A stretch of DNA of 64,000 bases from Eubacteriales bacterium (GCA_045128515.1 JBGVRO010000062.1:4776-68775); one strand, 5' to 3'; shown: positions 1,960 through 35,354, numbered from the stretch's first letter. Numbers and translations are program-made. Notes: generated from the letters alone by a model not told the origin.

Positions 1960-1992
1960 ATAATTATTTAAGCCTATATGATGCTATAATTC

Positions 1993-2048
1993 ATTCTGCA
2001 TTCTGCATTCTGAATTCTGCATTCACTCTGCACTCTGCATTCTGCACC
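1993..2048 (-). repeat. heptamer tandem array 2 (ATTCTGC-type x8, inverted relative to array 1)
   Basis: Reads ATTCTGC ATTCTGC ATTCTGA ATTCTGC ATTCACT CTGCACT CTGCATT CTGCACC. Positions 1993..2009 are the perfect reverse complement of 1880..1896. Confidence 0.85.
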
Positions 2049-2050
2049 AA

Positions 2051-2160
2051 CTCTTGAAACATAGTCGCATATTCTGCCTCGATACACTCGGCAGCCTCTG
2101 CTCCTTGTTTCTGCGCATTCGCTACGACAAAAACAACACTCAGTTGTTTTTGTCTGCTCA
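2051..2160 (-). repeat. dispersed intergenic repeat, short copy (related to 6425..6719)
   Basis: The reverse complement reads TGAGCAGACAAAAACAACTGAGTGTTGTTTTTGTCGTAGCGAATGCGCAGAAACAAGGAG...CTGCCGAGTGTATCGAGGCAGAATATGCGACTATGTTTCAAGAG. It matches three blocks of 6425..6719 in the same order. Confidence 0.7.
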
Positions 2161-2192
2161 CTGCATTTTGCATTCTGAATTCTGCATTCATC
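2161..2192 (-). repeat. heptamer tandem array 3 (CTGCATT-type), abutting the nrdD stop codon
   Basis: Reads CTGCATT TTGCATT CTGAATT CTGCATT CATC. Confidence 0.8.
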
Positions 2193-4592
2193 TTACGCCT
2201 TTACGCAGATCTTATCCACGAACGCCTTGATATTAGAGGGATTTGCCACGATCTCTGCGCTATTACCGCGGATAACAACGAGGGTGGGCGCTTCCTTAAT
2301 GCCATAGGCAGATACAAGCGAGGGATTCTCCTCGGAGATAAGTGTGTCGTAGTGAAGTCCCGCCTGATCGAGGAACATCTTAGCCATACGGCACTTGGGA
2401 CAGGTCTTGGTGGTAAAGAGGAGAAGCTGCTCGGGTGCGCACTCGCACTCCGCTGTCTGCACCTCTTCACTCTGCACTCCGCCCTCTGCACTCAAATAAA
2501 GCGGCTGCTTGCCTGTAAGCTTAGACTCGGCATAAACAACTCTGTCCTTATATTCCTGACTCTTACCGTCATTCCAGTTCTGTACGGGACGGTAGTAGCC
2601 TGTGATTCTGGAGTAGACCTCGGTTTTCTCTCCACAGTGAGGACAGCTGAACTGCTCGCCTGCAAGGTAGCCGTGGTTCTTACATACAGAGTAGGTGGGA
2701 GAGATAGAGTAGTAAGGCAATCTGTAATTCTCGGCAATGGTGCGCACGAGAAGGGCGGCAGACTTCCAAGAGGGAAGCTTTTCGCCAAGATATGCGTGGA
2801 ATACTGTACCAGAGGTATAGAGGGTGTGAAGCTCGTCCTGCATATCAAGAGCCTCGAAGATATCGTCGGTATAGCCAACGGGAAGGTGGCTGGAGTTGGT
2901 GTAATAGGGAGTACCGCCATTCTTATCGGATGCGGTGATAATGTCGGGATAGAACTTTCTGTCATGCTTTGCAAGACGGTAGGAGGTAGACTCGGCAGGA
3001 GTCGCCTCAAGGTTGTAGAGGTCACCGTACTTCTCCTGATAGTCGGAGAGGCGCTCACGCATATGGTTAAGCACGTTCTTGGTGAACTCACGTGTCTCGG
3101 CATGGGTCATATCCTTGCGCAGCCACTTTGCATTAAGACCTGCCTCGTTCATACCAACAAGACCGATGGTGGAGAAGTGGTTGGCAAAGGTGCCGAGATA
3201 ACGCTTGGTGTAGGGATAAAGTCCCTCGCCAAGGAGCTTTGTAATAACGTCACGCTTGATCTTAAGCGATCTTGCGGAAATATCAAGCATATGGTCAAGG
3301 CGCTTGTAGAAGTCAGCCTCGTCCTCTGCGAGATATGCGATTCTGGGCATATTGATTGTAACGACACCGATAGAGCCTGTGGACTCACCCGAACCGAAGA
3401 AGCCGCCCGACTTTTTGCGCAGCTCACGAAGGTCAAGACGGAGTCTGCAGCACATAGAACGTACGTCCGAGGGCTCCATATCGCTGTTAATATAGTTTGA
3501 GAAATAAGGTGTGCCGTACTTTGCGGTCATCTCGAAGAGCAGACGGTTGTTCTCTGTCTCCGACCAGTCAAAGTCGCGTGTGATCGAATAGGTAGGAATA
3601 GGATACTGGAAGCCACGGCCGTTTACGTCACCCTCAAGCATGGTTTCGATAAACGCCTTGTTTACCATATCCATCTCAGCCTTACAGTCACCGTAGGTGA
3701 AATCCATTTCCTTGCCGCCAACGATAGCAGGCAGGTTCTTAAGATCCTCGGGAACCGTCCAGTCGAGAGTAATGTTGGAGAAGGGCGCCTGTGTACCCCA
3801 TCTTGAAGGGATATTTACACCGTAGATAAAGGACTCGATGCACTTCTTGGTCTGCTCGTAGGTAAGGTTGTCCACCTTTACGAAGGGCGCAAGATAGGTG
3901 TCAAAGGATGAGAATGCCTGCGCGCCTGCCCACTCGTTCTGCATAATGCCAAGGAAGTTGACCATCTGGTTACAGAGAGAGGAGAGGTGCTTTGCAGGAG
4001 CAGAGGTGATCTTACCGGTAACACCGCCGAGACCCTCTTTAATAAGCTGTTTCAGCGACCAGCCTGCACAGTAGCCTGTAAGCATAGAGAGGTCGTGGAG
4101 ATGAATATCTGCGTTTCTGTGCGCGTTTGCGATCTCGTCGTCATAGATCTCGGAGAGCCAATAGTTGGCGGTGATAGCGCCCGAATTTGAGAGGATAAGA
4201 CCGCCTACCGAGTAGGTAACGGTAGAGTTCTCCTTAACTCGCCAGTCGCTGACCTTTACGTAGTTATCAACGGTGGTCTTGTAGTCAAGCACGGTGGAAC
4301 GCATCTCACGAAGTCTGGCATGCTGACGGCGATAGAGGATATACGCCTTCGCCACGTCGTCATATCCTGCCTGAATAAGCACCGACTCAACGCTGTCCTG
4401 AATGTCCTCGACGCTAACGTGTCCGTCCTTGATCTTGGGTTCAAAATCGGCGGTAACCTTCAGGGCGAGGAAATCTATGATATTGGGTGTATAATTGCGC
4501 TCCTGCGCCTCAAAAGCGAGGGCGATAGCACCCGAAATCTTACTTATATCAAATTCGACGATCTTGCCGTCTCTTTTTAACACGGTATACAT
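2193..4592 (-). CDS. nrdD: anaerobic (class III) ribonucleoside-triphosphate reductase with C-terminal glutaredoxin/NrdH-like thioredoxin-fold domain
   Basis: N-terminal ATP-cone (VLKRDGKIVEFDISKI), a long class III body, Zn-ribbon CKNHG...CPHCG and glycyl-radical motif SRITGYYRP. A 79-aa tail follows, LLLFTTKTCPKCRMAKMFL...APTLVVI, with CPKC and a cis-Pro-like APT (nt 2196..2432). Confidence 0.9.
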   Translation of the reverse strand: MYTVLKRDGKIVEFDISKISGAIALAFEAQERNYTPNIIDFLALKVTADFEPKIKDGHVSVEDIQDSVESVLIQAGYDDVAKAYILYRRQHARLREMRSTVLDYKTTVDNYVKVSDWRVKENSTVTYSVGGLILSNSGAITANYWLSEIYDDEIANAHRNADIHLHDLSMLTGYCAGWSLKQLIKEGLGGVTGKITSAPAKHLSSLCNQMVNFLGIMQNEWAGAQAFSSFDTYLAPFVKVDNLTYEQTKKCIESFIYGVNIPSRWGTQAPFSNITLDWTVPEDLKNLPAIVGGKEMDFTYGDCKAEMDMVNKAFIETMLEGDVNGRGFQYPIPTYSITRDFDWSETENNRLLFEMTAKYGTPYFSNYINSDMEPSDVRSMCCRLRLDLRELRKKSGGFFGSGESTGSIGVVTINMPRIAYLAEDEADFYKRLDHMLDISARSLKIKRDVITKLLGEGLYPYTKRYLGTFANHFSTIGLVGMNEAGLNAKWLRKDMTHAETREFTKNVLNHMRERLSDYQEKYGDLYNLEATPAESTSYRLAKHDRKFYPDIITASDKNGGTPYYTNSSHLPVGYTDDIFEALDMQDELHTLYTSGTVFHAYLGEKLPSWKSAALLVRTIAENYRLPYYSISPTYSVCKNHGYLAGEQFSCPHCGEKTEVYSRITGYYRPVQNWNDGKSQEYKDRVVYAESKLTGKQPLYLSAEGGVQSEEVQTAECECAPEQLLLFTTKTCPKCRMAKMFLDQAGLHYDTLISEENPSLVSAYGIKEAPTLVVIRGNSAEIVANPSNIKAFVDKICVKA

Positions 4593-6269: not shown

Positions 6270-6406
6270 TTTTATGCCTTTCTACCATTTACTTTATATA
6301 CATTTTACCTTAAACCCAATAAATATGCAATAGCTTTTGCAAAATAACTTGACAAATCGCCCTTGTTTTGATATAATGGTTAGGCTAAAAAGAATAAATA
6401 ATATTT

Positions 6407-6424
6407 CGAGGTGTAGCGCAGTTG
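6407..6424 (+). pseudogene. 18-nt 5' fragment of tRNA-Pro
   Basis: CGAGGTGTAGCGCAGTTG is identical to tRNA positions 1-18 (6983..7000). Confidence 0.6.
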
Positions 6425-6719
6425 TGAGCAGGCAAAAACAACTGAGTGTTGTTTTTGGCGTAGCGAAGCGGCGTGAGGGTATTGAATGACAGTCCGGTGG
6501 ACTGTCAGACCCCGAACGTGACCGAGCAGCAGCGAGTAGCGAATGCGCAGAAACAAGGAGAACGAGAAGAAAATAGTTAATAACTGTTTTCGCCGAAGTG
6601 ATGTCTCGCGTTGCGAGCAGAGTGAGCGAGGTTTACCTTGCGAAACTATGCGACACAAAAGCAGACGGGAAAATGCTGCCGAGTGTATCGAGGCGGAGAG
6701 TACGACTATGTTTCAAGAG
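6425..6719 (+). repeat. dispersed intergenic repeat, long copy (related to 2051..2160)
   Basis: Same three blocks as 2051..2160 plus two insertions. Contains perfect hairpins CAAAAACAAC-TGAGT-GTTGTTTTTG and TGACAGTCC-GGT-GGACTGTCA. Track ORFs here lack coding character. Confidence 0.7.
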
Positions 6720-6788
6720 AGAGCGCCATCTTGGGCGCGCGGAAAAACGAGCACAATGACATAGCAAATCTAAAATAAACAACAATTT

Positions 6789-6826
6789 CGAGGTGTAGCG
6801 CAGTTGGTAGCGCGCCAGTTTCGGGT
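6789..6826 (+). pseudogene. 5' half of tRNA-Pro (positions 1-38), truncated in the anticodon loop
   Basis: 38 nt identical to 6983..7020. It diverges immediately after TTCGGGT. Confidence 0.8.
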
Positions 6827-6982
6827 GCAAACCACCGATTTCAAATCTAAAATTTTGAAAAACGCCCAAATCCCTTGAAAACACTGATTTTTTTGGCTCT
6901 CCCGAAGTCTTAAAAGTTCGCAAATTTTCGGTCTGACCACATGTTTGACCACTTACAGAAAATCGCATAAAAATCATCAAAA

Positions 6983-7058
6983 CGAGGTGTAGCGCAGTTG
7001 GTAGCGCGCCAGTTTCGGGTACTGGAGGCCTGGAGTTCGAATCTCCACACTTCGACCA
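6983..7058 (+). tRNA. tRNA-Pro (anticodon CGG)
   Basis: Manual cloverleaf. Acceptor CGAGGTG/CACTTCG (one G-U), D arm GCGC-AGTTGGTA-GCGC, anticodon arm CCAGT-TTCGGGT-ACTGG, variable AGGCC, T arm TGGAG-TTCGAAT-CTCCA, discriminator A and encoded CCA. 76 nt. Confidence 0.9.
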
Positions 7059-7275
7059 AAAAGAAAGTGCTGAAACCCTTTGATTTTACTGGGTTTTCGG
7101 CACTTTTTCATTTTCTTATTTTCGCTCCAAAATCTCTCCAAAACTTGTTTTGACCACATAACTGACCACAACAAAATTCTTTTTATACCGCTTTTTACTT
7201 AATTATTACGTATACAACTACGGAAAGATTATCCGTTTAACCTCGCTAAAGAAGACCGTCACGGCTTTGTTTCGT

Positions 7276-7310
7276 GACGGTCTTCTCTTTGTTTAAGGCG
7301 TTGTAATTTT
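7276..7310 (+). repeat. 35-bp direct repeat, copy 1 (left boundary of AbiH cassette)
   Basis: GACGGTCTTCTCTTTGTTTAAGGCGTTGTAATTTT is 33/35 identical to 10412..10446. It is preceded by the hairpin AAGACCGTCAC...GTGACGGTCTT. Confidence 0.8.
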
Positions 7311-7414
7311 AGCCGACTCACTTGAGTGGTGCTATCATTATGATCACAGATATAACTTGAGAATTTTGTGGCGAATTATCTTTTGCGTGATCTTTTGTTA
7401 ACTTTCGATTTGCG

Positions 7415-8641
7415 TTAATTCCACGGAGCTGTTATGTGAATAATCTCTTCTCCAAAATTTGAATTTAGGTGTAATGAAAAATCTGATAGATCCGTATCTA
7501 GAGAGTAAAATGTTAGTTTTTTGTTTTTCTTCAAATCGTCAAAACCATCTTTACCAAATATTTTTATCAAGTTCTTAATGTAGTCTTTTTTAGCCATTTC
7601 GCTATGATACAGTATGTAAATTTCACTAGCGTGTAAGAACACCTCTTCTAATATATCTTTATCTGTGTCATCTAAAGAATGCCCCATTATTGTTAAATAA
7701 TAGTCCTCGTTCGCTTCGTTTATGTCTCTGATCCACTCTAGATATTTATAATCGGTTCCAAATAAGGTTCTTTGATAATATTTTTTAAACGCTATAAAAG
7801 AAACATTAATGGTTTCAACATTATCGTTCGAGTCGGGGTTGACGCCTATAATGATTCTATCAGTTACCTTTCCGTGTATGTGATAAATTGTGTTTTGAGA
7901 ATACAATTTTTCATATGTATCAGTATAATTAAATGATATCGTATAATCCATATTCTTAACCGCGCTGCATATTGGTGTACTAGACTGATTAACAATGCCA
8001 CTCAAACTAACATCAACAAAGCATTCCAAATATAATTTTAATGCTTTGGCTACTTCATCGAGCATCACCGACATTTTTTCAATTATCTTCGCTTTGTTTA
8101 TCGTTAGATTTTTGGATCCCTGTGGATATTCAATAATGTATTCATCAATTATTTTATGTGTTGTAGTCCCAAATATGCTATCAATTTTAGTTTCCATAAA
8201 AAAACCAAAATGTTTTATCAAATAATATGCCGCTGTGTCTACTCTTGATAAGTTGGGGTTAACAGAAGCAATTGAAAGGAACTTAAAAAACACCTCTATT
8301 ACATAAGTGATTTCTCGTTCAAAATCTATCCACCCAAGATCTTTATTAAACGATTTTGTAAAGTAAGAAAACCATAAGTTTTTAGAGCATATACGAATAA
8401 TTTCATTTATCTTTTCTGCATTCAGCGGCATGCTATCATAAATTTCTTTGTGCCGTTCATAACACTTTGCTATATATGGATCGTCCTCCTGTAGCAATTC
8501 ATCTGAAAAAACAGATCCTATCGTTTTATATTCCTCGCTATAGTATTCAACAAGATAGTTAACCACGTTTAAAAAATTATGATATTTTGTAGGAAGGTAA
8601 TGATATATATCAAATCCGTTTCCAAGCAATAAAACATTCAT
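7415..8641 (-). CDS. AbiH-family abortive-infection protein
   Basis: The N-terminus MNVLLLGNGFDIYHYLPTKYHNFL matches the AbiH hallmark (IGNGFDLAHGLPT.Y.DF), and IMGHSLDDTDKDILEEVF matches the C-terminal AbiH motif. Start moved to the ATG at 8641 (RBS GAGGTG). Confidence 0.75.
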   Translation of the reverse strand: MNVLLLGNGFDIYHYLPTKYHNFLNVVNYLVEYYSEEYKTIGSVFSDELLQEDDPYIAKCYERHKEIYDSMPLNAEKINEIIRICSKNLWFSYFTKSFNKDLGWIDFEREITYVIEVFFKFLSIASVNPNLSRVDTAAYYLIKHFGFFMETKIDSIFGTTTHKIIDEYIIEYPQGSKNLTINKAKIIEKMSVMLDEVAKALKLYLECFVDVSLSGIVNQSSTPICSAVKNMDYTISFNYTDTYEKLYSQNTIYHIHGKVTDRIIIGVNPDSNDNVETINVSFIAFKKYYQRTLFGTDYKYLEWIRDINEANEDYYLTIMGHSLDDTDKDILEEVFLHASEIYILYHSEMAKKDYIKNLIKIFGKDGFDDLKKNKKLTFYSLDTDLSDFSLHLNSNFGEEIIHITAPWN

Positions 8642-8824
8642 TTTTACACCTCTGTATGATAAAATTAGACAAATTAAACTTAACACTAACATTATATCAC
8701 GCAAATCTACACGTTTCAATATAGCCATGATTTTTTATTGAAAATGTGTTTTTTTAGTGATGAAAATCCCGTTACGGTTATTTCCGTGATGGGATTTTCA
8801 TTTATGATTTTAGCTGCACGCCTT

Positions 8825-10315
8825 TTATAAACACAGTGATACAATCCTCTCAAATTGAGACTCATATATACCCGACTCAATTAGGTAAGTGTTCTCGTTT
8901 ATGCCATGCCGAGCAAAAATCTGTTGCAAATCCCGCCCCTCACCCGAAAATGTTTTTTCGCAATTGTATTTTTCTTCAAATATTTTTTCCGCTAACGACG
9001 GATTGTCCTTGTAGGTTTGTAATAGGATTTCAAATTCATTTATATTAACTAACCAGAAACTTCCAACATTGTTATATTCCGGATGTCTCTTAAACCACTC
9101 GTTAAGAGTTTCGCTTTTGAAATACTCTTCGTATACTAGAATTATTTTTATTGTATCACTAAGATTATACGCTTTTTCGGTACTTATCAATTGATCTACA
9201 GCTTCCTTCCAAGTGCTTTCCATATGTTTTAGCATAGCATCTGTATTTGGGTGTGTTTGTTTTATCGAAAGCATAGCCAGACCAGATTTTTGTTCAATAA
9301 AAATAGTCTTGTTAGCAATTTTTAGTAGCCAATCTGCTCGTTTCCCATTGTTTTCCTCTATACGTGAATACAAAGAAGAATCTATACATTTTTGTAACAC
9401 CTCTTTTACATACATCTCGAAAAAAGTTCCGAATGCATTTATGAAGTGTTGCGATTTATACTGCATATAATGATTTCGCATAACCCAATATTCTGAGTTG
9501 GCAAATAAAAACATCAGTAAAATAGGATTTATAGCTACGTATGTTTTCTCATTCAATTTTACAATAGGTTTTGAGTAGAAAACTTGTCGTTTCAAAGGAC
9601 TGTTTCTGGCTTCATTTAAAATAACTGAATATTTTTGTATTATCTTTTTAAAATTGGCAGAATTAATTATTTCATTTGAGCTGTCTATAATAGGATCTTT
9701 AGGCAACGAATCCGTGTCGATAATAAAGCTTAATTGAGTAAAATAAGCAAAAACGGAAAACAACAAACATGCATGCTGATCTGTTGTAAATCCGGTTATT
9801 TCTAAAAATTCTTTCGGTACATTAATGTCATAAATGTTTTCTGGGTCTTCCCTTACCGAAAGTATATCTAGTATGTATTTTTCTCTGGAAAATTCTTCGT
9901 TTGCGTGTGCTGCTCTTTGAAAACGGATTTGTTCCCCTAACATACCATAAACATTTAGCATCGGACTAACCTTATTGCCAGATAATCTCTTGGCACTTTT
10001 GTCATTAGCATAATCATTATGAAGCGCGATTAGATGCAAGGTTTCGTTTTTTGTTATATTTTTGTGACCGTCTAAATTGTTTACAATCAAATCATATGCT
10101 AAATCTAAAAGCCAAGGCTGTACGATAGTAACTTTTCCAAAATGCATTCCGTTATCATTGGGTATCTTATATTTCCTGGATGAAGCAAAGTGACCAAACT
10201 GAGGATCCTCGTGTTGAAAAAGCTCATTAGACCAATATGCTATAGATGCTAGCATTGACTTTAGGGAATAATTTGCAGCATAGAGTAAAAATTTATGTGG
10301 TAATATCACTTTCAT
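8825..10315 (-). CDS. hypothetical protein with predicted PD-(D/E)xK nuclease motif
   Basis: The C-terminal half has FEMYVKE ... RADWLLKIANKTIFIEQKSG, an E...D-x13-ExK pattern. Start moved to the ATG at 10315 (RBS AAGGA), because the longer track ORF would overlap the integrase gene. Confidence 0.45.
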   Translation of the reverse strand: MKVILPHKFLLYAANYSLKSMLASIAYWSNELFQHEDPQFGHFASSRKYKIPNDNGMHFGKVTIVQPWLLDLAYDLIVNNLDGHKNITKNETLHLIALHNDYANDKSAKRLSGNKVSPMLNVYGMLGEQIRFQRAAHANEEFSREKYILDILSVREDPENIYDINVPKEFLEITGFTTDQHACLLFSVFAYFTQLSFIIDTDSLPKDPIIDSSNEIINSANFKKIIQKYSVILNEARNSPLKRQVFYSKPIVKLNEKTYVAINPILLMFLFANSEYWVMRNHYMQYKSQHFINAFGTFFEMYVKEVLQKCIDSSLYSRIEENNGKRADWLLKIANKTIFIEQKSGLAMLSIKQTHPNTDAMLKHMESTWKEAVDQLISTEKAYNLSDTIKIILVYEEYFKSETLNEWFKRHPEYNNVGSFWLVNINEFEILLQTYKDNPSLAEKIFEEKYNCEKTFSGEGRDLQQIFARHGINENTYLIESGIYESQFERIVSLCL

Positions 10316-10411
10316 ATTGTCAATCCTTGTAATCTTCTTTTCATTATTATAGCATATTTTAAATGCATTTTCAATTGTTTTATATATCGTGACCGCCGCG
10401 ATAATTTCCGC

Positions 10412-10446
10412 GACGGTCTTTTCTTTGTTTAAGGCGGTGTAATTTT
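10412..10446 (+). repeat. 35-bp direct repeat, copy 2 (right boundary of AbiH cassette, abuts integrase stop codon)
   Basis: GACGGTCTTTTCTTTGTTTAAGGCGGTGTAATTTT, preceded by the hairpin GACCGCCGCG...CGCGACGGTC. Confidence 0.8.
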
Positions 10447-11867
10447 TAACCGTTTTTCTTGAGTTCGGCAATCTCGATTTTCATCTCTTTTATTAGCTCT
10501 ACAAGCTTCGCCTCGCACTCTTCTTCGGTATGAGCATACACGTTTCTTGGCATTCTTTTGCCGTTTACAGTTGGTGTGTATCGCCCTTCCCATAGGTGAT
10601 CGTTTATCTTCGTTATGCAACCGGTGCCGGGCTTTCGGTATTTGCTCTTTACGGGCTCAAATTTCTGTTTTGGTGCGGTTTTATCACCATCCGTGTTAAG
10701 TTCTCCGATTGTTTTCTCTTTTGTCGACACACCGCGAATTCCTCGGTCAATACTCCTTGCTGCTTCCTTTTGCATCTTGTCGGTGCTATGCAGGTAAATG
10801 TCGAGAGTCGTTGACGATGACACGTGACCGATTATTGAGGAGAGTGTTTTTATATCCATTCCGTTCGCAAGTGCGGTTGTTGCAAAGGTGTGCCTTAGGT
10901 CATGGAATCTTATTCGTTTACAGTCGGCTCTTTCAAGCACCTTGCGTATCTTCTTTTGCAGGGTGTTCGGGTTTCTCGGTACGTCATCAACCTTTGGCGA
11001 TGGGAACATCCAGCGAGAGTGAGTTTCCTCTTTCAATTTCTTCAAGACTTCGAGAACTGCTTCGGGAAGCTTTATCGTTCTTATCGAGCTTTTTGTTTTC
11101 GGCTCGTTTGTCTGCATCTTACCGTTTAAGTAGTAGGCTTGTCTTCTTATTTCAAGCATACCCGTGTTAAAGTCTAGGTCTTGCCACTGGAGACCCATTA
11201 TCTCACCTCTACGCATACCAGTGGTGAGTGCAAGAAGGCAGATTTCAAAGTATCCGTCATACTTTGCTTGTATAAGGAATCTCTGCATTTCTTCCTCGGT
11301 CAGTGTGTTCATCTCCTTGGCTTTCTTCGGAGGTATCTTGCAACCGACTGCAACATTTGTATGTACGAGTCCGTCTTCAAGTGCCTTTTCAAGTGCTGAT
11401 CTGCAATGTGCGTGACATGCTCTTACCATTCTGTCAGACATTCCCTCACCGAGCGTGTCTTTGTATTGCAGTCTTCCGTTCTTTTTCATTCTTGCATAGA
11501 ACTGCTCAAGGTCGTTTGCGTTGAGTCTTTCGAGGACTATCTTGCCTATTTCGGGGATTATGTGCTTATAGATCACGTTCTCGTAAGCTGCTTGAGTTGA
11601 TGGGCGGAGCGAGAGCTTTTTATAATTCTGATACCAAAAGTCTATCCACTCCCCGAAGAGCATATTCGATGTAACCTTATCTCGTCTTACTATTCCTATC
11701 TCGCTTTTGAGCTTTTCAAGCTTCGCTTCGCACTCCATCTTCGTTTTTGCGAGTACGTTCTTGGTCTTGGGAAGTCCTTTTTCATCGTAGCCTACAAGTA
11801 CTCGTCCTTCCCATCTGCCGTCACTTCTTTTGCGGACTGTTCCGCTTCCTCTGTCTCTTCTTCCCAT
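10446..11867 (-). CDS. tyrosine recombinase/integrase (N-terminal and extra C-terminal arm-binding-like domains)
   Basis: N-terminus GSGTVRKRSDGRWEGRV. Catalytic region RFHDLRHTFAT ... GHVSSSTTLDIYLH. The C-terminal 80 aa repeat the N-terminal pattern (ITKINDHLWEGRYTP...EEECEAKLVELIKEMK). RBS AGGAGG. Confidence 0.85.
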   Translation of the reverse strand: MGRRDRGSGTVRKRSDGRWEGRVLVGYDEKGLPKTKNVLAKTKMECEAKLEKLKSEIGIVRRDKVTSNMLFGEWIDFWYQNYKKLSLRPSTQAAYENVIYKHIIPEIGKIVLERLNANDLEQFYARMKKNGRLQYKDTLGEGMSDRMVRACHAHCRSALEKALEDGLVHTNVAVGCKIPPKKAKEMNTLTEEEMQRFLIQAKYDGYFEICLLALTTGMRRGEIMGLQWQDLDFNTGMLEIRRQAYYLNGKMQTNEPKTKSSIRTIKLPEAVLEVLKKLKEETHSRWMFPSPKVDDVPRNPNTLQKKIRKVLERADCKRIRFHDLRHTFATTALANGMDIKTLSSIIGHVSSSTTLDIYLHSTDKMQKEAARSIDRGIRGVSTKEKTIGELNTDGDKTAPKQKFEPVKSKYRKPGTGCITKINDHLWEGRYTPTVNGKRMPRNVYAHTEEECEAKLVELIKEMKIEIAELKKNG

Positions 11868-11868
11868 A

Positions 11869-13038
11869 CTAACCTCCTATGATATCACCGAATAAGCTCT
11901 CGGTGAAGTTACCCACTATGTTGGATGCTCTCTCTTGCATATCACTCGTTACGTGGGTGTATGTATCCAAGGTAAAGCTTGCGTTGGTATGCCCGAGGAT
12001 TTTCGAAAGTGTCTTGGCATCCACTCCACTCGTCAGTGCGTGGGTTGCGAAGGTGTGTCTTAGGTCGTGGAATCTTATGCTCGGCAGACCTGCCGATTTG
12101 AGAATCTTTTTCAGCTTATGGTAAGCGCTGTTTGGCAGCATTGGATCTTCGGGTCTATACGGATTCGGGAATATCCACTCGGTGAGAGATTGCTTTTTTC
12201 TATCCTTTAATATATTAACAGTGCTTTCGGGGAGATATATTATTCTCTTTCCGGTTTCGGTTTTAGTTTCACCGATTTCTACTCCTCCGCCACTCTTTGC
12301 GCTCGCACTTCTCTGTATCGTAAGCGTTCCGTTTTTCTCATGGAAGTCCGACCATTTGAGCCCGCATATTTCACCTCTGCGAAGACCTGTAGTTAACTCC
12401 GTATAGAAGAAGTCTCGCCATATTTCGTCCTTGTCCACCTCTACAAGAAATCTATCGAGCTCTTCCTTGTTAAGCACTTTGAGATCACCTCGACTCTTCT
12501 TCGGTATCGTAGTACCTTTCGTAGGATTCCTCGATATGAGCCTTTGCTTTACTGCAGTATCCAAAGCCTGATGCAGAATCATATGTACCGCTCTTACTAC
12601 CGAGTCGGATAGCAACGCGCCATATTTATCTACACCGCTTATTCTTCCATTCTCTTTAACATCTACATACATTTTCTGCACGTCGTTTGTTGTGATGAAT
12701 GAAATCTTTTTATCCCCAAGGCGAGGATTTATATAACACTCCACGGCTCTTCTGTATTTTTCAAGTGTCCTCGGGCGGAGCTCATTTTCCTTGTACTCGA
12801 TGAGCCACCTTTCAAGCCACTCGGCAAGTGTCATTGAGCTATCTTCTGATAACTCTACGCCCCTATATTCAAGTATTTTTGCGTGAAGCTTTTTCGTTAA
12901 CTCTTTTTGCGTTTGAGCAAGAACATATCTGAATATTGGTTTGCCATCGTCCTTGTGTCCGACTACTATTCTACCTTCCCATCGACCGTCATTTCGTTTT
13001 CTGACTAGTCCGTCTCCGTCAGGTCTTTTGTTTCCCAT
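11869..13038 (-). CDS. tyrosine recombinase/integrase (paralogue)
   Basis: N-terminus GDGLVRKRNDGRWEGRI. Catalytic region RFHDLRHTFATHAL ... GHTNASFTLDTYTH. Its stop TAG lies 1 nt before the next integrase ATG. Start set at 13038 (RBS AAAGGAG). Confidence 0.85.
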   Translation of the reverse strand: MGNKRPDGDGLVRKRNDGRWEGRIVVGHKDDGKPIFRYVLAQTQKELTKKLHAKILEYRGVELSEDSSMTLAEWLERWLIEYKENELRPRTLEKYRRAVECYINPRLGDKKISFITTNDVQKMYVDVKENGRISGVDKYGALLSDSVVRAVHMILHQALDTAVKQRLISRNPTKGTTIPKKSRGDLKVLNKEELDRFLVEVDKDEIWRDFFYTELTTGLRRGEICGLKWSDFHEKNGTLTIQRSASAKSGGGVEIGETKTETGKRIIYLPESTVNILKDRKKQSLTEWIFPNPYRPEDPMLPNSAYHKLKKILKSAGLPSIRFHDLRHTFATHALTSGVDAKTLSKILGHTNASFTLDTYTHVTSDMQERASNIVGNFTESLFGDIIGG

Positions 13039-13151
13039 AGATTTCTCCTTTCTGTTTTTTTGTAACACAACAATATCACAGGTTCAACCAAATATCCAGA
13101 CATTTTTCAATGTTTTTGAAAAGAATTGTTTGCATTTTGAAAAAATCAAAG

Positions 13152-19794: not shown

Positions 19795-22011
19795 TTAGTC
19801 ATTTTTGTTATTATTCCAAACGATTCTGGTATCCAAGATTTCTTTTCTGCACTCGCAGTCCTCATTATAATCTACTATAGTATCAACATCAACCCAAACT
19901 ATATCATCAAAGAAATAACCCAATTCATCTGATTTGAAAAGTTGCACGAGACTTGAATCAGAATTCAACAAACAGTTTTGTCTGATAATAAGCAAATTGC
20001 TGTTGTACTTCATGGTGAGAAACATACTATACAGATTAAATTCACTGTCTTTATAGAGCAACATTCCCGTAGCGAGCTTTGTGCAGATAGAGTTCAATCT
20101 TGAAGTATTAAAGATTGGACTCCCCTCAGATGTTACAGCATTTTTATATCCATTTTCATAACTTGCATATCGATCTTTGAGTATTTCTCTTTGACAATAT
20201 TGTGTTACCCCAGGATACCAAAATATGACTTCGGATGTTTCACCTTTTGCATGATGCTGTGCAGAAAGAAAAGGTAAATCATACTTTAATGCTAGTCTGC
20301 TAAGACGAGCCTGAGCTTCAAAACTATCGGTAAATGCGCACAAGAGGATATTGCCACTTTTATTACACTTGGAAAGGATCTCGGTTTCAAACCAAATATC
20401 ATTTTTTGAGTCATCGAGCATTTCCGGAATAGAGACAACGTTGACAGTTGAATTGATTCTCAAGATGTTCGTTCGCGTTACATCGGTCTTAGAGAGACCG
20501 ATTTCATCGTTATAAACATTTTGGCTTGCAATGTTTTGAACGGATACTTTGTCTCCATCCATCAAGAAAAAATTCTCAACACCGATTCGCGCCATATCTA
20601 GATAAAACTCTCTGGCTCCACCACATCCTACACCTATCACGGTGCACTGTTTTAGAAAATCAACGTTTAATACACTTTCAACTCTTGCAAACGGTGATTC
20701 AGATGGCTCATCTAATACTGGAGAAAAACCAGCATCAAATCGTTTCATGATTTCTTCTTCGCTAAGAGAAGATTCACCGACTTCATCTATCTGAATCACA
20801 TCAAGCTGCACACTTTTAATATTACAAGGAACAACCTTACCATTAGCTTTTACGATAAAACCGAAAACTCTGAACTTGCCGCCAGCAGAGCTATTTACAA
20901 GTGGCATAAACAACTCTTGAAGAGATACTGCACGCATAATTCTTATAGCATACTCGATGTCCGCGCTTGACAGTTCAGATCCATTAAAAGGATGACTATG
21001 TACAAAACCTTTAAAAGAAACGTCCGACCACTCCTCTTCCAAAACTTGATTTAAAAACTTCGTATTTGGTGAGTATTCTGCAGTACCAGTGTTTGCGTTC
21101 TTATCAAAAACGAAGCAATCAATGATTTTGCCATCTGTACTACCCAACATACCACCTTTTTCGGGTTTGAGCGTTCCAATAGTTTCAAGGATTTGTTGGT
21201 ATACTTCTTCCGACATTGTAATTGTAGGCTTAGAATTTGTTTTGAAATTGCTGTTTTTATTACGAAGAGCGCGAAAAGTGCCCGTAGGAAGGATTCCTTT
21301 ATTTTTAACTCTGTGATGGGCCGAACTTTCGTTAAGCTCACCATTCTGAATATAAGAAACCAAAAGTTTAACGTAACGCTTAGCCCATGTAATCATTACC
21401 GCATTTGCGTCCTGGAAATCTGTTACAAGTGAATTCCAGCAAATAGAAGGCCGGTCTGCAGGCAAATTGTAATAATGGAATGCCGAACGATCTTGGCACC
21501 ATTCTTTATAAGGCGCCTCAATTACATAAATCGTATAGCCAGTTCCAGAAAAACGAGTACCGTCATCGTAAGCCCTGCGCTGATATTCCTGTACTATGCG
21601 AAACTTGAAATAGTAAGTTTTATGATCGTTGCCTTCGAGTCTGAACTCTTTGATAAATCTAAAGGTTCCGTCAGGAAGTTTAATTCCGCCACCGTTTCGC
21701 CCACCTTTATTGCCAACTCTATTACCGCCTCCGTTTCTTAATTGACTTGCGGTATTGCTCATAATTCTACTATAATTATTGATTATACGCACTTCGTTGG
21801 GGCCAACATTAATATATGCAGAATTGCCATGATCTATTTGATTTCTTAGATCCACAAGTCGTACGATTGTGACACGGTCATCATAATCGATAATACCTGC
21901 TCTAACTGCTTTTGCTGCCCAATCCTTAGCATTTCCTCCGATGATCATTTCAGCCTTTTTATTTAACTTATCAACAGCATCGCTAAATTGCATGTTATAT
22001 GTATTAGACAT
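19795..22011 (-). CDS. multidomain polyprotein: HEPN-like N-domain, Gly-rich linker, E2/UBC-like, JAB/JAMM peptidase, E1/ThiF-like adenylase
   Basis: RBS GGAGG 7 nt before the ATG at 22011. Numbering from that Met:
- LRNQIDH (55-61), an Rx4H motif
- SQLRNGGGNRVGNKGGRNGGG (89-109)
- FHYYNLPADRPSICWNSL (178-195), resembling the E2 HPN...C loop
- EKGGMLG and HSHPFNGSELSSAD (338-351), the JAMM HxHx7Sx2D motif
- IGVGCGGA (459-466) and DGDKVSVQNIASQ (485-497), ThiF/E1 Rossmann
The JAB and E1 calls are strong; the E2 and HEPN calls are tentative. Confidence 0.7.
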   Translation of the reverse strand: MSNTYNMQFSDAVDKLNKKAEMIIGGNAKDWAAKAVRAGIIDYDDRVTIVRLVDLRNQIDHGNSAYINVGPNEVRIINNYSRIMSNTASQLRNGGGNRVGNKGGRNGGGIKLPDGTFRFIKEFRLEGNDHKTYYFKFRIVQEYQRRAYDDGTRFSGTGYTIYVIEAPYKEWCQDRSAFHYYNLPADRPSICWNSLVTDFQDANAVMITWAKRYVKLLVSYIQNGELNESSAHHRVKNKGILPTGTFRALRNKNSNFKTNSKPTITMSEEVYQQILETIGTLKPEKGGMLGSTDGKIIDCFVFDKNANTGTAEYSPNTKFLNQVLEEEWSDVSFKGFVHSHPFNGSELSSADIEYAIRIMRAVSLQELFMPLVNSSAGGKFRVFGFIVKANGKVVPCNIKSVQLDVIQIDEVGESSLSEEEIMKRFDAGFSPVLDEPSESPFARVESVLNVDFLKQCTVIGVGCGGAREFYLDMARIGVENFFLMDGDKVSVQNIASQNVYNDEIGLSKTDVTRTNILRINSTVNVVSIPEMLDDSKNDIWFETEILSKCNKSGNILLCAFTDSFEAQARLSRLALKYDLPFLSAQHHAKGETSEVIFWYPGVTQYCQREILKDRYASYENGYKNAVTSEGSPIFNTSRLNSICTKLATGMLLYKDSEFNLYSMFLTMKYNSNLLIIRQNCLLNSDSSLVQLFKSDELGYFFDDIVWVDVDTIVDYNEDCECRKEILDTRIVWNNNKND

Positions 22012-22088
22012 TTTAATCCTCCGATCCAAAAGTATTTTGTTTAATTATGCTGAGTTCACAATTTCGAACATCTAAATCTGCTAAACAA

Positions 22089-22117
22089 ATTATACCATAA
22101 AAATATAATAAAATCAA
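22089..22117 (-). promoter_or_regulatory. sigma-A-type promoter for the polyprotein gene
   Basis: On the minus strand: TTGATT (22112..22117), 17 nt, TATAAT (22089..22094), with an upstream TG (TGgTATAAT extended -10). Confidence 0.55.
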
Positions 22118-22143
22118 TTATACAGTTTGTCATTCTATGATTT

Positions 22144-22980: not shown

Positions 22981-22981
22981 T

Positions 22982-23692
22982 TTACCACTCCCAATCTACT
23001 TCTTCAAGCGCTTGTTTAACCTCTTGTACAACCTGCTCGTTTTTCGGCACAGGCTTCGATGCGTTAACACCTGTGGTTGAGGATTTTACCTTTGAAGCAG
23101 TCAAGACGATAATCTTGATTATGTTCTTAAGAAGGCTCGCATCGTAGCAATCTATAACGTCACCGTTACCCGAAACGAACTCGTCAAGCACATTTCGTGT
23201 TCTATCGTCGTTGAGCATGATTGCGATTCCGTACTTAAGAGCCTCGCGAAACCAAGGAAGTTTCTTTAACTCATCCATCTCTTTGTGAAGCGGATACTTC
23301 GTGGGGTGACCGTCGGTCATAAGAAGTATAATGGGAGCTACTCCACCAAAGTCGGGCATTATGCCGCCCTTTGACTGCTTTGTTAGTATCTCTGAAAGCT
23401 TTCTGTAGGCGAGGTGGAGGTTGCTCCACCCACCGCCCTTGAGATCGTGAAACTTGAAGTGCTCAATTTCCTTCGACCTATCGTTATTGAGAAAGCTTGC
23501 GTCGTTTGAGAAAGGAATGACCGTGATTGCGAAGCTGACGTTCGTGTTCTCGTCCTGCATTTCAACAAGGTGATCGCGAATATCTCGAAGAGCCTTATTT
23601 ACTTGAGATATACGCTCGCCCTGCATGCTCTTGGACGTATCCACAAGGATAATGACGTTCAACTGCTGTTTTGCTATTCTGTCTGCTACCAT
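22982..23692 (-). CDS. vWA-domain protein (TerY-like), copy 1
   Basis: MIDAS motif VDTSKSMQG. The PIILLMTDGHPT block is typical of TerY-type vWA. C-terminal tail EEVDWEW. Confidence 0.8.
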   Translation of the reverse strand: MVADRIAKQQLNVIILVDTSKSMQGERISQVNKALRDIRDHLVEMQDENTNVSFAITVIPFSNDASFLNNDRSKEIEHFKFHDLKGGGWSNLHLAYRKLSEILTKQSKGGIMPDFGGVAPIILLMTDGHPTKYPLHKEMDELKKLPWFREALKYGIAIMLNDDRTRNVLDEFVSGNGDVIDCYDASLLKNIIKIIVLTASKVKSSTTGVNASKPVPKNEQVVQEVKQALEEVDWEW

Positions 23693-23704
23693 AGTGCACC
23701 TACC

Positions 23705-24439: not shown

Positions 24440-24440
24440 A

Positions 24441-29949: not shown

Positions 29950-29961
29950 ATGTATATCTCC

Positions 29962-33924: not shown

Positions 33925-34102
33925 TCTTATTACCTCCGGTAGCACAACACAATACCACACAAATTTCGTAAAGTCCAGACTTTTGGAGAAAGAAAAAACG
34001 ACGATTTTACTCGTCGCTATTCTTTGTTTCAGGCAGTAAAGATTTTTGCCATTGTGTTTTGTCGTCCATGCTATAGTTCCTCAAGAAAATGCATAAAATA
34101 AT

Positions 34103-34872: not shown

Positions 34873-35305
34873 TATCGAGCCGGTATTCTTTGTTTAGTGT
34901 TGACTAATTTTCGATCAGTGCAAGGCGCTTTTCATTGTCTTAGGCATAGTGATTTTTCACGATTGATCTTTGTATAAGGCTGATAAGATTTTTATCATCA
35001 AAAGCTCTTGCTTTTTCTTCGTTTTAGAGTTACAATACAGCAAACCAAGCGTATATTTCGTGCATATTTCTTAACACGGGTACGGTTTGTTAATGGGGGA
35101 GAAAAGTTCATTAACTTTCAATTTTCCATTTTCAACTGTCCACTGTCAAACCGTTTGCAAAGCAAAAACGGTTTGACCACATAACTGACCACAACGGGAA
35201 TTGTTCTATACGGAAACAACGGAAACAATGTGCAAAATGGTGCGTTTTAGCGGAATATACGGACTATATGTAAACAAAAGTGTTGAAAAAACGAATAAAG
35301 GTCGC

Positions 35306-35354
35306 TTCGGGTACTGGAGGCCTGGAGTTCGAATCTCCACACTTCGACCAAAAA
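35306..35354 (+). repeat. attR: displaced 3' part of tRNA-Pro (positions 32-76 plus 4 nt)
   Basis: 49/49 identical to 7014..7062. Followed by its own hairpin GAAAAGAGAGCC...GGTTCTCTTTTC plus a T-run. Confidence 0.9.

What the first reader, a model, noticed from the sequence alone, without database searches (positions are those of the whole stretch)
7276..10446. AbiH + predicted PD-(D/E)xK nuclease cassette flanked by 35-bp direct repeats, wedged between attL and the integrase stop codon
**The repeats.**
- A 35-bp sequence (GACGGTCTTyTCTTTGTTTAAGGCGkTGTAATTTT, 33/35 identical) occurs at 7276..7310 and at 10412..10446.
- The second copy ends exactly at the integrase stop codon.
- Each copy is preceded by a different GC-rich hairpin.

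**The cargo.** The 3.1 kb between the copies is strikingly AT-rich and holds only two genes: an AbiH-family gene and a 496-aa gene with an E...D-x13-ExK motif.

**Why it looks like an insertion.**
- Removing the segment would put the integrase about 250 bp from the tRNA, the usual arrangement.
- This resembles site-specific accretion of an integrase-less cassette, comparable to CIME-type accretion next to streptococcal ICEs.
- It suggests AbiH and the nuclease work as a pair.
Basis: partly seen in the sequence, partly recalled or inferred. Interest (0 to 1): 0.55.

Follow-up and report, generated by a model that had tools for sequence, protein, structure and literature searches.

The report
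Defence-gene slot framed by island end-repeats
Two unrelated single-gene anti-phage genes (AbiH and a distant GapS1-type nuclease) sit in the variable cargo slot between the integrase and the tRNA-Pro attachment site of a 28-kb genomic island; the 35-bp repeats around them are two copies of a conserved "integrase-tail" element of this island family, so the locus is largely ordinary.

Summary
A 33/35 direct repeat lies at 7276-7310 and 10412-10446. Each copy overlaps the 3' arm of a stable hairpin. Between them is a 3.1-kb AT-rich segment with two genes, beside a tyrosine integrase.

- **Genes.** The 496-aa gene is a distant relative of GapS1, a stand-alone PD-(D/E)xK defence protein. AbiH and it have separate promoters and are not linked elsewhere.
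- **Not one unit.** A relative (L090) keeps integrase, repeat and GapS1-like gene at 80% nucleotide identity. It has other genes in place of AbiH and only one repeat copy.
- **Not the att core.** The island's att core is a 49-bp tRNA-Pro 3' half (7014-7062 = 35306-35354).
- **What the 35-mer is.** It is a conserved box plus hairpin found after the integrase stop, near the tRNA and at module borders in about 80 related islands of gut Clostridia. All copies share the integrase strand. None occurs in 333 kb of flanking chromosome.
- **Likely origin.** Copy 1 resembles the integrase-tail of sister islands and is followed by about 40 nt that look like an integrase 3' end. The duplication most likely arose by fusion of two related islands followed by deletion. 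A relative (L034) shows such accretion clearly.

The slot is a cargo hotspot: 61 gene clusters in 45 loci.

The parts
6983..7058 (+). tRNA-Pro(CGG), the integration target; it forms the attL side of the island
   Evidence: ARAGORN; Rfam tRNA, 64.5 bits
7014..7062 (+). attL copy of the 49-bp att core (tRNA 3' half from the anticodon loop, plus 4 nt)
   Evidence: Perfect 49-nt direct repeat with 35306-35354 (D6)
7149..7188 (+). TGACCAC-N5-TGACCAC repeat (candidate arm-type site or tRNA-promoter-like box) inside attL. The same sequence recurs at 35172-35211.
   Evidence: D9. 30 nt are identical in L090, L002, L003, L004 and L085, but there the sequence lies just beyond the tRNA 5' end.
7250..7286 (.). 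Hairpin 1 (15 bp). Its 3' arm overlaps repeat copy 1. On the + strand it reads as an intrinsic terminator facing the tRNA gene.
   Evidence: Terminator scan; fold -27.8 kcal/mol, z -5.7. The sequence type matches the integrase-proximal hairpin of L085 and L090.
7276..7310 (-). Repeat copy 1 (tRNA-proximal box)
   Evidence: nhmmer family profile 16.8 bits
7311..7350 (-). Probable relic of the last ~40 nt of a second integrase gene
   Evidence: Alignment A1. Anchored alignment to the integrase 3' ends of the window, L002, L003 and L090 gives p <= 0.001 by shuffles and <= 0.009 against cargo 40-mers. An unanchored test was not significant.
7415..8641 (-). AbiH-family abortive-infection gene (408 aa), with its own promoter-like site at 8719-8691
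   Evidence: Pfam PF14253, 3.2e-33, 116 bits; PADLOC AbiH 4e-11; promoter TTGAAA-17-TATAAT with TG
8759..8802 (.). Hairpin between the two genes. It marks the module border where homology with L090 ends.
   Evidence: -19.5 kcal/mol, z -6.5; blastn window versus L090 stops at 8769
8825..10315 (-). GapS1-like predicted PD-(D/E)xK protein (496 aa), with its own promoter-like site at 10374-10346
   Evidence: NCBIfam NF047931, 2.9e-14, below the family cut-off; invariant E300, D328, E341, K343; AF2 pLDDT 89.8; best fold matches are restriction-endonuclease-like folds, none significant
10391..10418 (.). Hairpin 2 (10 bp including a G-U pair). Its 3' arm overlaps repeat copy 2.
   Evidence: -20 kcal/mol, z -3.8
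10412..10446 (-). Repeat copy 2 (integrase-tail box). By the family profile it extends to 10451, into the Int1 stop codon.
   Evidence: nhmmer 27.9 bits
10446..11867 (-). Int1, a tyrosine recombinase (473 aa) whose C-terminal ~60 aa repeat its N-terminal arm-binding-like domain
   Evidence: Pfam Phage_integrase and SAM_3; N-terminus versus C-terminus BLASTP 43% identity, E 6e-12
11869..13068 (-). Int2, a second tyrosine recombinase (399 aa) in tandem
   Evidence: Pfam. The tandem pair is conserved in relatives.
34015..34046 (-). Degenerate box copy followed by a hairpin and a T-run, at the start of the island body
   Evidence: nhmmer 12.1 bits; sequence; fold
34881..34915 (-). Degenerate box copy about 390 nt inside the attR core. 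Together with 34015-34046 it brackets a DUF4160/DUF2442-HTH gene pair (34166-34872, + strand).
   Evidence: nhmmer 10.5 bits; Pfam
35306..35354 (+). attR copy of the 49-bp att core
   Evidence: D6

Best explanation
**Setting.** The locus is the cargo slot of a 28.3-kb island integrated in tRNA-Pro(CGG). The island carries two tandem tyrosine recombinases.

**Slot.** In this island family the stretch between the stop codon of the last integrase and the tRNA takes up unrelated genes, many of them anti-phage. Here it holds two independent single-gene defence systems, each with its own promoter:
- an AbiH-family gene;
- a distant GapS1-type PD-(D/E)xK protein.

**Repeats.** The 35-bp repeats are two copies of a family-specific unit: a conserved box of about 30-35 nt ending in AAACAAAGAA, plus a hairpin of variable sequence.
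- The unit normally follows the integrase stop and/or lies in the tRNA-proximal arm.
- Read from the tRNA side it is a hairpin followed by a U-tract, so it likely also terminates transcription running into the island.

**History (inferred).**
- Copy 2 is the tail of the resident Int1.
- Copy 1, with hairpin 1 and about 40 nt of integrase-like sequence, is the surviving integrase-tail and attL arm of a second, closely related island that integrated in tandem at the same tRNA.
- One deletion then removed that island's interior and the hybrid att site.
- Cargo is otherwise exchanged by recombination between the conserved frames (integrase plus unit on one side, tRNA or arm on the other).

**Shown versus inferred.** Anatomy, family-wide conservation, slot variability and independence of the two genes are shown. 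The order of events and the functions of the box are inferred.
For: **Island limits.** 49-nt perfect tRNA-derived direct repeat; tRNA.

**Slot variability.**
- The gap is 51-6350 nt in relatives.
- Seven islands with 88-92% identical Int1 (window, L002, L003, L004, L085, L086, L090) carry seven different low-GC cargos.
- 61 protein clusters in 45 loci include CBASS, ThsB, Fic, DRT and also transporters and oxidoreductases.

**Unit is family-wide and island-restricted.**
- It follows the integrase stop in integrases down to 51% identity.
- 102 profile hits lie on the integrase strand and 0 on the other.
- 0 hits in 333 kb beyond the tRNA, against 0.60 per kb in the slot.
- The box is 33-34/35 identical between the window, L002 and L090, while the adjacent integrase 3' ends are about 84% identical.
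- The hairpins show compensatory changes.

**Not one cassette.** Window versus L090 is 80% identical from 15461 to 8769 and then breaks. L090 has no AbiH and one box. An AbiH homologue (63%) sits directly after a box-like sequence without a GapS1-like gene in L100.

**Copy 1 is an integrase-tail.**
- 83% identity over 78 nt to the L090 integrase end, box and hairpin.
- The hairpin type equals that of L085 and L090.
- The adjacent 40 nt resemble integrase 3' ends, p <= 0.001.

**Accretion in the family.**
- L034 has a 216-nt, 90% direct repeat (box to the tRNA edge) around a 4-kb cargo in which no integrase-sized ORF was listed (not domain-checked). L041 is the empty counterpart.
- Tandem junctions are seen in L042 and L063.

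**Independent genes.** Separate promoter-like sites and an intervening hairpin. GapS1 works as a single protein.
Against: - No hybrid att core or arm relic remains inside the segment, so the accretion history is indirect.
- The integrase-relic signal is modest: anchored test only, and the unanchored test was not significant.
- In other double-copy islands the distal copies show no integrase relic. One mechanism may not explain all duplications.
- In the L049, L061 and L062 group both copies look like a stable frame of the slot rather than a recent fusion.
- The GTGGTCA-type repeats lie inside attL here but outside the tRNA in the closest relatives, which the model does not explain.
- All comparators are metagenome assemblies.
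- No excision or recombination data exist.
- The profile used to count boxes was seeded from slot sequences.
Confidence: 0.55

Rival explanations
1. The box (with or without its hairpin) is a genuine secondary recombination site. One of the tandem recombinases captures, excises and shuffles circular cargo modules there, in an integron-like or lox-like way. The 3.1-kb segment would then be a captured cassette flanked by the two product sites.
For: - Box copies are strictly co-oriented (102:0) and island-restricted.
- They bracket cargo in several independent lineages: L034, L047, L038, L049, L062, L075, L060.
- The box is more conserved than the neighbouring coding DNA.
- Module M2 of L062 and L067 sits exactly at the 3' edge of the unit.
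- Two or three tandem recombinases are present, and Int1 has a duplicated DNA-binding-like domain.
Against: - Repeated stretches differ in extent and include flanks (216, 81, ~95, ~75 nt).
- Many filled slots have a single copy, either integrase-proximal or tRNA-proximal.
- M2 is inserted without a new copy.
- The window segment is two separately inherited modules.
- Hairpin stems vary by compensatory changes and loops are 6-9 nt. That fits an RNA terminator, not a fixed protein-bound core.
- The box has no clear inverted-repeat core.
Confidence: 0.12
2. The two copies are an old, selectively maintained frame of the slot, with one terminator or insulator unit on each side. There was no accretion of a second island. 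Cargo is swapped inside the frame by homologous or illegitimate recombination, and the high identity of the 35-mer reflects purifying selection or gene conversion.
For: - The L049, L061 and L062 group shows a conserved unit and promoter upstream and a unit within the conserved attL arm downstream, with different cargo between.
- The box is under stronger constraint than the integrase 3' end.
- Each unit reads as a terminator toward the island.
Against: - The closest relatives of the window (L002, L003, L085, L086, L090) have only the integrase-proximal copy.
- Copy 1 carries integrase-like sequence and the hairpin type of sister islands. That points to a separate integrase-tail rather than an ancestral downstream frame.
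Confidence: 0.22
3. AbiH and the nuclease form a two-component defence system that moves as one cassette.
For: - The genes are adjacent, on the same strand and of similar low GC.
- The pair is also present in one short metagenome contig, L001, which is near-identical DNA and not an independent case.
Against: - Each gene has its own promoter-like site, and a hairpin lies between them.
- L090 and L091 have the GapS1-like gene without AbiH.
- The GapS1-like genes of L092-L095 have other neighbours.
- Five AbiH homologue contexts lack any GapS1-like gene.
- tblastn over 95 loci found no other co-occurrence.
- GAPS1 defends as a single protein.
Confidence: 0.05
4. The repeat is a chance match or a generic terminator without any link to the island.
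For: Each copy does include a hairpin followed by a T-rich run on the + strand.
Against: - 0 of 100 shuffles give a match.
- The box beyond the U-tract is conserved across about 80 islands and absent from 333 kb of flanking chromosome.
Confidence: 0.02

Closest known systems
CIME-type tandem accretion next to ICEs and IMEs (ICESt1/ICESt3 of Streptococcus thermophilus; definition in PMC5704250)
   Same: - Related elements pile up at one tRNA or att site and decay.
- The composite keeps one working integrase.
- L034 in this family is a good example: a 4-kb cargo with no integrase-sized ORF listed, lying between two copies of the tRNA-proximal arm.
- The window shows a relic integrase-tail next to the tRNA.
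   Different: - A CIME is bounded by the element's attL and attR. The window's 3.1-kb segment is bounded by a 35-mer that is not the att core, and it keeps no core relic.
- The likely relic is the ~290-nt tRNA-proximal piece, not the AbiH/GapS1-like segment.
- No conjugation or mobilisation genes were seen among the ORFs scanned from 13152-33547.
Defence or cargo hotspots of integrative elements. GMT islands carrying GAPS systems are documented in bioRxiv 10.1101/2023.03.28.534373. P2/P4 hotspots and SXT hotspot 5 are from my own knowledge. One search lists a survey titled 'Defense systems are pervasive across chromosomally integrated mobile genetic elements' (PMC10201445).
   Same: - A fixed position next to the recombination module holds fast-changing, low-GC, mostly single- or few-gene defence systems.
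- Close relatives differ only there.
   Different: - The hosts are uncultured gut Clostridia.
- The slot lies between the integrase stop and tRNA-Pro.
- It is framed by a conserved non-coding box plus hairpin that I have not seen described.
- The cargo is not only defence.
Tycheposons of Prochlorococcus (bioRxiv 10.1101/2020.12.28.424599)
   Same: - Tyrosine-recombinase elements at tRNA genes carry plug-in cargo.
- New arrivals push older ones inward and leave partial tRNAs and degenerate remnants.
- The window has extra tRNA 3' relics at 35516-35536 and 35796-35816.
   Different: - A different recombinase family, with two or three in tandem.
- No replication module was identified.
- A different host phylum.
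GAPS1/GapS1 single-protein defence system (Vibrio and E. coli)
   Same: - Length of about 450-500 aa.
- PD-(D/E)xK motif toward the C-terminal half, with the same D-to-K spacing of 15 residues (D313/K328 versus D328/K343).
- Carried as cargo of an integrase-bearing island.
- A profile match covers 320 of 455 model positions.
   Different: - It scores 52.8 bits against a family cut-off of 320, and only 14 of 32 homologues hit the model at all. It is a sister family, not a member.
- Trigger and target are untested.
- Some homologues are followed by a conserved 205-212-aa ORF.
Integron cassettes and attC sites (from my own knowledge)
   Same: Co-oriented repeats with a structure-conserved, sequence-variable hairpin separate unrelated genes next to a tyrosine recombinase.
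   Different: - The conserved part is a non-palindromic box.
- Cargo genes have their own promoters and either orientation.
- Many arrays have one copy only.
- The integrase is convergent with the tRNA and also mediates tRNA integration.
- No IntI-specific features were tested.
PeSL 'mobile regulatory cassettes' of T4-type phages (from my own knowledge)
   Same: Short conserved promoter and stem-loop units flank variable ORFs and are thought to mediate module shuffling by homologous recombination. The unit-plus-promoter frame of the L049 group looks alike.
   Different: A phage hyperplastic region versus the end of a chromosomal island. There is no sequence relation.

Membership tests
AbiH (Pfam PF14253) | Profile match above the curated gathering score | tested here: met
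   116.4 bits against a cut-off of 30.9, E 3.2e-33; PADLOC AbiH 4e-11
AbiH (Pfam PF14253) | Confers abortive infection as a single gene | not testable with these tools
   Only context evidence: its own promoter-like site, and homologues occur alone among other defence genes
GapS1 (NCBIfam NF047931) | Profile score at or above the curated cut-off (320 bits) | tested here: not met
   52.8 bits, E 2.9e-14. 14 of 32 homologues match at E <= 1e-3, best 6e-18.
GapS1 (NCBIfam NF047931) | Conserved PD-(D/E)xK active site (D...ExK) required for defence | tested here: met
   - E300, D328, E341 and K343 are invariant in 32 homologues.
- The D-to-K spacing of 15 equals D313/K328 of GAPS1.
- Top fold matches are restriction-endonuclease-like folds but none reaches E < 1e-3.
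- The requirement for defence was not tested.
GapS1 (NCBIfam NF047931) | Acts as a single protein | tested here: inconclusive
   It stands alone in the window and in L090. In L092-L095 it is followed by a conserved 205-212-aa ORF.
CIME (cis-mobilizable element) accreted to an integrative element | Bounded by attL and attR sites of the element family | tested here: not met
   The att core is the 49-nt tRNA 3' half. The 35-mers are unrelated to it. No core or arm relic lies in 7311-10411.
CIME (cis-mobilizable element) accreted to an integrative element | Lacks integration and transfer genes | tested here: met
   Only AbiH and the GapS1-like gene lie in the segment
tRNA-integrated genomic island with tyrosine integrase | Direct repeat of the tRNA 3' part at both ends, with the integrase next to one end | tested here: met
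   7014-7062 = 35306-35354, 49/49. Int1 and Int2 lie at 10446-13068. The same tRNA-Pro association is seen in 42 of the 45 relatives with a downstream tRNA; three sit at tRNA-Thr, -Arg or -Val.
Integron gene cassette | attC: an imperfect palindrome with conserved R''/R' core sites at the 3' end of each promoterless, co-oriented cassette | tested here: not met
   - The conserved part is a non-palindromic box.
- The genes have their own promoter-like sites.
- Cargo orientation varies.
- Single-copy slots are common.
Intrinsic (rho-independent) terminator | GC-rich stem-loop followed by a U-tract | tested here: met
   - Copy 1 was flagged on the + strand.
- Copy 2 has the same layout with a mismatched stem and was not flagged, but it folds at -20 kcal/mol.
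- The stems show compensatory changes across relatives.
- Termination itself was not measured.

The most novel reading that the evidence does not exclude
The conserved box plus hairpin unit is a dedicated landing pad. One of the tandem tyrosine recombinases recognises it; a candidate is Int1, which has a duplicated arm-binding-like domain. Cargo modules would then be captured, excised and exchanged between islands at this site. That would be a cassette system in gut Clostridia, distinct from integrons, which assembles defence arrays next to tRNA-Pro.
Probability: 0.12. Interest if true: 0.75.

Novelty: new member of a known kind. Interest (0 to 1): 0.35.

Why it matters
- **Cargo slot.** It documents a previously undescribed family of tRNA-Pro islands in uncultured ruminant and animal gut Clostridia. 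The integrase-to-tRNA slot turns over very fast (61 gene clusters in 45 loci). That makes it a practical place to mine new defence genes.
- **New nuclease family.** The slot includes a GapS1-like PD-(D/E)xK family with no Pfam model.
- **Caution on short repeats.** A short, near-perfect direct repeat around cargo need not be a recombination site. Here it is a conserved island-end element present twice.
- **Open question.** If the conserved box turns out to be protein-bound or recombinogenic, it would explain how such slots are refilled. That is the only part of the finding with real upside.

Tried and rejected
**Searches that gave little or nothing.**
- Megablast of the island body against the phage collection: no match.
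- Rfam on 6300-10700: only the tRNA.
- PDB sequence search with the 496-aa protein: nothing.
- Pfam and PADLOC on the 496-aa protein: nothing.
- Exact-protein look-up of Int1 found only one 4.2-kb contig with the same arrangement.
- The exact AbiH protein is not on record.
- A metagenome scan for the clade-specific box found 8 loci. Only two (L085, L086) were close island relatives, both with other cargo and one box copy. No empty site was found among the close relatives.

**Tests that were negative.**
- An unanchored local alignment of 7311-7414 to integrase 3' ends was not significant. Only the anchored test was.
- The same anchored test on distal copies in 17 other cases was negative. Integrase relics therefore cannot be generalised.
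- A search for tRNA core or att-arm relics inside the segment was negative.

**Ideas considered and dropped.**
- Target-site duplication by a transposon: 35-95 nt is too long, and there are no transposase genes or inverted repeats.
- oriT or rolling-circle origin: four copies per island and no relaxase or Rep gene were seen.
- Promoter in the box: the window's copies lack the TTGA of the family consensus.
- lox-like core in the hairpin: the stems covary and the loops vary from 6 to 9 nt.

Full report
**1. Observation**

- No other match with up to three mismatches exists in the 64-kb window, and none appeared in 100 shuffles.
- The repeat finder extends the pair to 41 nt at 90% (D8). A local alignment finds weaker similarity over about 7254-7346 versus 10390-10485.
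- Copy 2 ends on the last base of the stop codon of a 473-aa tyrosine recombinase, Int1 (10446-11867, minus strand). A second recombinase, Int2, follows in tandem at 11869-13068.
- Both hairpins are stable. The first bases of each repeat are the 3' arm of its hairpin, so hairpin and repeat form one unit.
- GC is 0.32-0.34 across the segment and 0.40-0.45 in the integrase genes.

**2. Island limits**

- tRNA-Pro(CGG) lies at 6983-7058.
- Its 3' half from the anticodon loop plus 4 nt (7014-7062) recurs perfectly at 35306-35354 (D6).
- These are attL and attR of a 28.3-kb island. The 35-mer is therefore not the att core.
- The ORFs scanned between 13152 and 33547 encode the following: a LexA/S24-type repressor; an ABC transporter; a ThiF-domain protein; PP2C, two VWA proteins and a protein kinase; an FtsK-gamma protein; an RNase T-like exonuclease; a proteasome-like subunit with an AAA+ ATPase.
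- No phage or conjugation genes were seen among those scanned ORFs, and there was no match in the phage collection.

**3. The two genes**

*AbiH.* The gene at 7415-8641 is a clear AbiH-family member (PF14253, 116 bits).

*The 496-aa protein (8825-10315).*
- It has no Pfam, PADLOC or PDB sequence match.
- It matches the NCBIfam model for GapS1 over 320 of 455 positions (E 2.9e-14), far below the family cut-off. 14 of 32 homologues do the same.
- E300, D328, E341 and K343 are invariant.
- GAPS1 is a single-protein PD-(D/E)xK defence system found in integrase-bearing GMT islands. D313 and K328 are essential, and a phage capsid protein triggers it. The D-to-K spacing is the same here.
- A confident model (pLDDT 89.8) has its best, though non-significant, PDB matches among restriction-endonuclease-like folds: BspD6I, Can2/Cdn1, LmuA, RecU and Hjc.
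- I file it as a sister family of GapS1, not a member.

**4. Not a pair**

- Each gene is preceded by a strong promoter-like site (TTGAAA-17-TATAAT with an extended TG) at 10374-10346 and 8719-8691. A hairpin at 8759-8802 lies between them.
- The closest GapS1-like homologue (81% identity) sits in L090 and L091 directly after the same Int2, Int1 and box. It is followed by two unrelated genes on the other strand, not by AbiH.
- More distant homologues have other neighbours.
- Five AbiH homologue contexts have no GapS1-like gene. In L100 an AbiH (63% identity) follows a box-like sequence directly.
- tblastn over 95 loci (1.19 Mb) found the pair only in L001, a near-identical copy of the window.

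**5. What the 35-mer is**

- Eighty relatives of Int1 were fetched from MAGs of animal-gut Clostridia (Acutalibacteraceae, Oscillospiraceae and others).
- Of the 45 relatives with a tRNA gene downstream of the integrase, 42 have tRNA-Pro.
- Immediately after the stop codon, or overlapping it, many carry the consensus TCAAAAATTGAGCCGCAGTAAACAAAGAAWA. This holds in integrases down to 51% identity. The window's 35-mer is the local variant.
- A profile of the box gave 102 hits on the integrase strand and none on the other.
- The density was 0.60 per kb in the integrase-to-tRNA slot, 0.035 per kb further inside, and zero in 333 kb of chromosome beyond the tRNA. This rules out a genome-wide terminator family.
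- The box is followed and/or preceded by a hairpin whose sequence varies with compensatory changes. Read from the tRNA side, the layout is hairpin, then U-tract (TTCTTTGTTTA), then box.
- The window itself has two further degenerate copies at 34015-34046 and 34881-34915. The latter lies about 390 nt inside attR. Together they bracket a DUF4160/DUF2442-HTH pair.
- In L011 a copy lies 300 nt inside attR and another about 70 nt from the tRNA.
- The unit is thus an element of island ends and module borders.

**6. The slot**

- The distance from integrase stop to tRNA ranges from 51 to 6350 nt.
- Minimal islands exist with gaps of 51-226 nt; four of them (L065, L036, L032, L013) show a single box copy, while L031, L014 and L056 have no profile hit. 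The window would have 251 nt without its segment.
- Seven islands with 88-92% identical Int1 each carry different low-GC cargo:
  - window: the GapS1-like gene plus AbiH;
  - L002: a 377-aa protein of unknown function;
  - L003: an AAA_15/AAA_21 ATPase;
  - L004: a metallophosphoesterase;
  - L085: a SEC-C protein;
  - L086: a HEPN-like protein;
  - L090: a GapS1-like gene plus two others.
- Across 45 loci, 71 ORFs fall into 61 clusters. They include CBASS cyclases and effectors, ThsB, Fic, DRT reverse transcriptases and NUDIX. They also include transporters, oxidoreductases and a two-component system.

**7. Origin of the duplication**

*Two modules.* Window and L090 are 80% identical from 15461 down to 8769. 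That stretch runs through both integrases, the box, hairpin 2 and the GapS1-like gene. Similarity ends at the hairpin before AbiH, and L090 has one box only. The "cassette" is therefore two separately inherited modules.

*Copy 1 looks like an integrase-tail.*
- It is 83% identical over 78 nt to the integrase end, box and hairpin of L090.
- Its hairpin is of the L085/L090 type rather than that of the window's own Int1.
- The 40 nt beyond it align to integrase 3' ends better than any of 5000 shuffles or nearly all cargo 40-mers (p <= 0.001 and <= 0.009). An unanchored test was not significant.

*Variable repeat extents in other islands.*
- L034: 216 nt at 90%, from the box to the edge of the tRNA, around a 4-kb cargo in which no integrase-sized ORF was listed. 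L041 is the empty counterpart.
- L047: 81 nt.
- L049 and L062: about 75 nt.
- L042 and L063 show tandem junctions.
- Variable extents that include flanks argue against a fixed crossover in the box. They fit homologous ends of related elements joined by different deletions.

*Most economical history for the window.*
- An Int1 island already carried the GapS1-like gene and AbiH in its slot.
- A second island of the same clade integrated at the tRNA.
- One deletion ran from just past AbiH to about 40 nt before the second integrase's stop.

*Points against this history.*
- No att core relic remains inside the segment.
- Distal copies in other islands show no integrase relic.
- In the L049 group the two units look like a stable frame.

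I therefore hold this history at moderate confidence.

**8. Function**

- Shown: conservation, strand bias, island restriction and hairpin covariation.
- Inferred, first role: the unit insulates the integrase and island from transcription coming from the tRNA gene or from cargo.
- Inferred, second role: its conserved box serves as a short homology patch for cargo replacement, or as a protein-binding site.
- A site-specific role is not excluded. Int1 has a C-terminal repeat of its N-terminal arm-binding-like domain, and two or three recombinases are present.

**9. Comparison and verdict**

- The locus works like the defence hotspots of other integrative elements and like accreted islands at tRNA genes (CIME-type accretion; tycheposons).
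- It fails the defining CIME test.
- The GapS1-like gene extends a known defence family.
- The finding is real but mostly ordinary. The conserved box is the one feature worth an experiment.

**Caveats**

- All comparators are metagenome assemblies.
- The box profile was seeded from slot sequences.
- No functional data exist.

Noticed in passing
window 6403-6429, 6785-6826, 6925-6955: Two partial copies of the 5' half of tRNA-Pro lie upstream of the intact gene. Between the nearer copy and the tRNA is a degenerate TGACCAC repeat that overlaps a promoter-like site (TTGACC-18-AAAAAT at 6945-6974). L090 and L002 have the same layout of tRNA, repeat and pseudo-tRNA. The origin is unexplained; it could be a relic mini-element or a duplicated tRNA gene.
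   Followed up: partly
window 7149-7188 and 35172-35211; L090 10149-10181: A 24-30-nt TGACCACATAACTGACCAC sequence is identical at both inner ends of the window's island. In the closest relatives it lies outside the island, about 18 nt upstream of the tRNA 5' end. Perfect conservation against an 80% background suggests a protein-binding site. Its changing position is unexplained.
   Followed up: partly
window 35516-35536 and 35796-35816 (with hairpins to 35572 and 35880): Two more relics of the tRNA-Pro 3' end lie to the right of attR, each followed by its own terminator-like hairpin. The outer one is next to half a box (AAAACAAAGAAAAA). This suggests older islands at this tRNA that were almost entirely deleted.
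   Followed up: partly
window 10446-11867 (Int1): The last ~60 residues of Int1 repeat its N-terminal arm-binding-like domain (43% identity over 56 aa, E 6e-12). Int2 lacks this extension. A tyrosine integrase with such a domain at both ends is unusual.
   Followed up: partly
window 34166-34420 and 34429-34872 (+ strand): A DUF4160 / DUF2442-HTH gene pair, opposite in orientation to the island body and bracketed by two degenerate box copies. It forms a second small module at the attR end and may be toxin-antitoxin-like.
   Followed up: partly
window 19795-31173: The island body carries a 744-aa ThiF-domain protein, then PP2C, two VWA proteins and a Ser/Thr kinase, then an FtsK-gamma protein, an RNase T-like exonuclease, and a proteasome-like subunit with an AAA+ ATPase. 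These look like further conflict or signalling systems. Several neighbouring ORFs (29962-33547) have no Pfam match.
   Followed up: no
L092 5001-7358, L093, L094, L095 5001-7147: More distant GapS1-like homologues (44-47% identity) are each followed by a conserved 205-212-aa ORF without a Pfam domain. This may be a partner protein that the window and L090 lack. In L092 the box follows the stop of a single 416-aa integrase, and a second copy lies upstream of its HTH genes.
   Followed up: no
L034 int stop +294..+509 and +4520..+4728; L041: A 216-nt direct repeat (90%) of the whole tRNA-proximal arm flanks a 4-kb cargo with no integrase-sized ORF listed. The inner copy ends in about 14 degenerate nt of the tRNA 3' end. 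L041 (95% identical integrase) is the unfilled version. This is a clean example of CIME-like accretion in the family.
   Followed up: yes
window 1982-2494: Five copies of a 30-nt CTGCATTCTGCATTCTGAATTCTGCATTCA-type repeat lie upstream of or within the 799-aa ORF at 2193-4592 (D1). They are unrelated to the finding.
   Followed up: no
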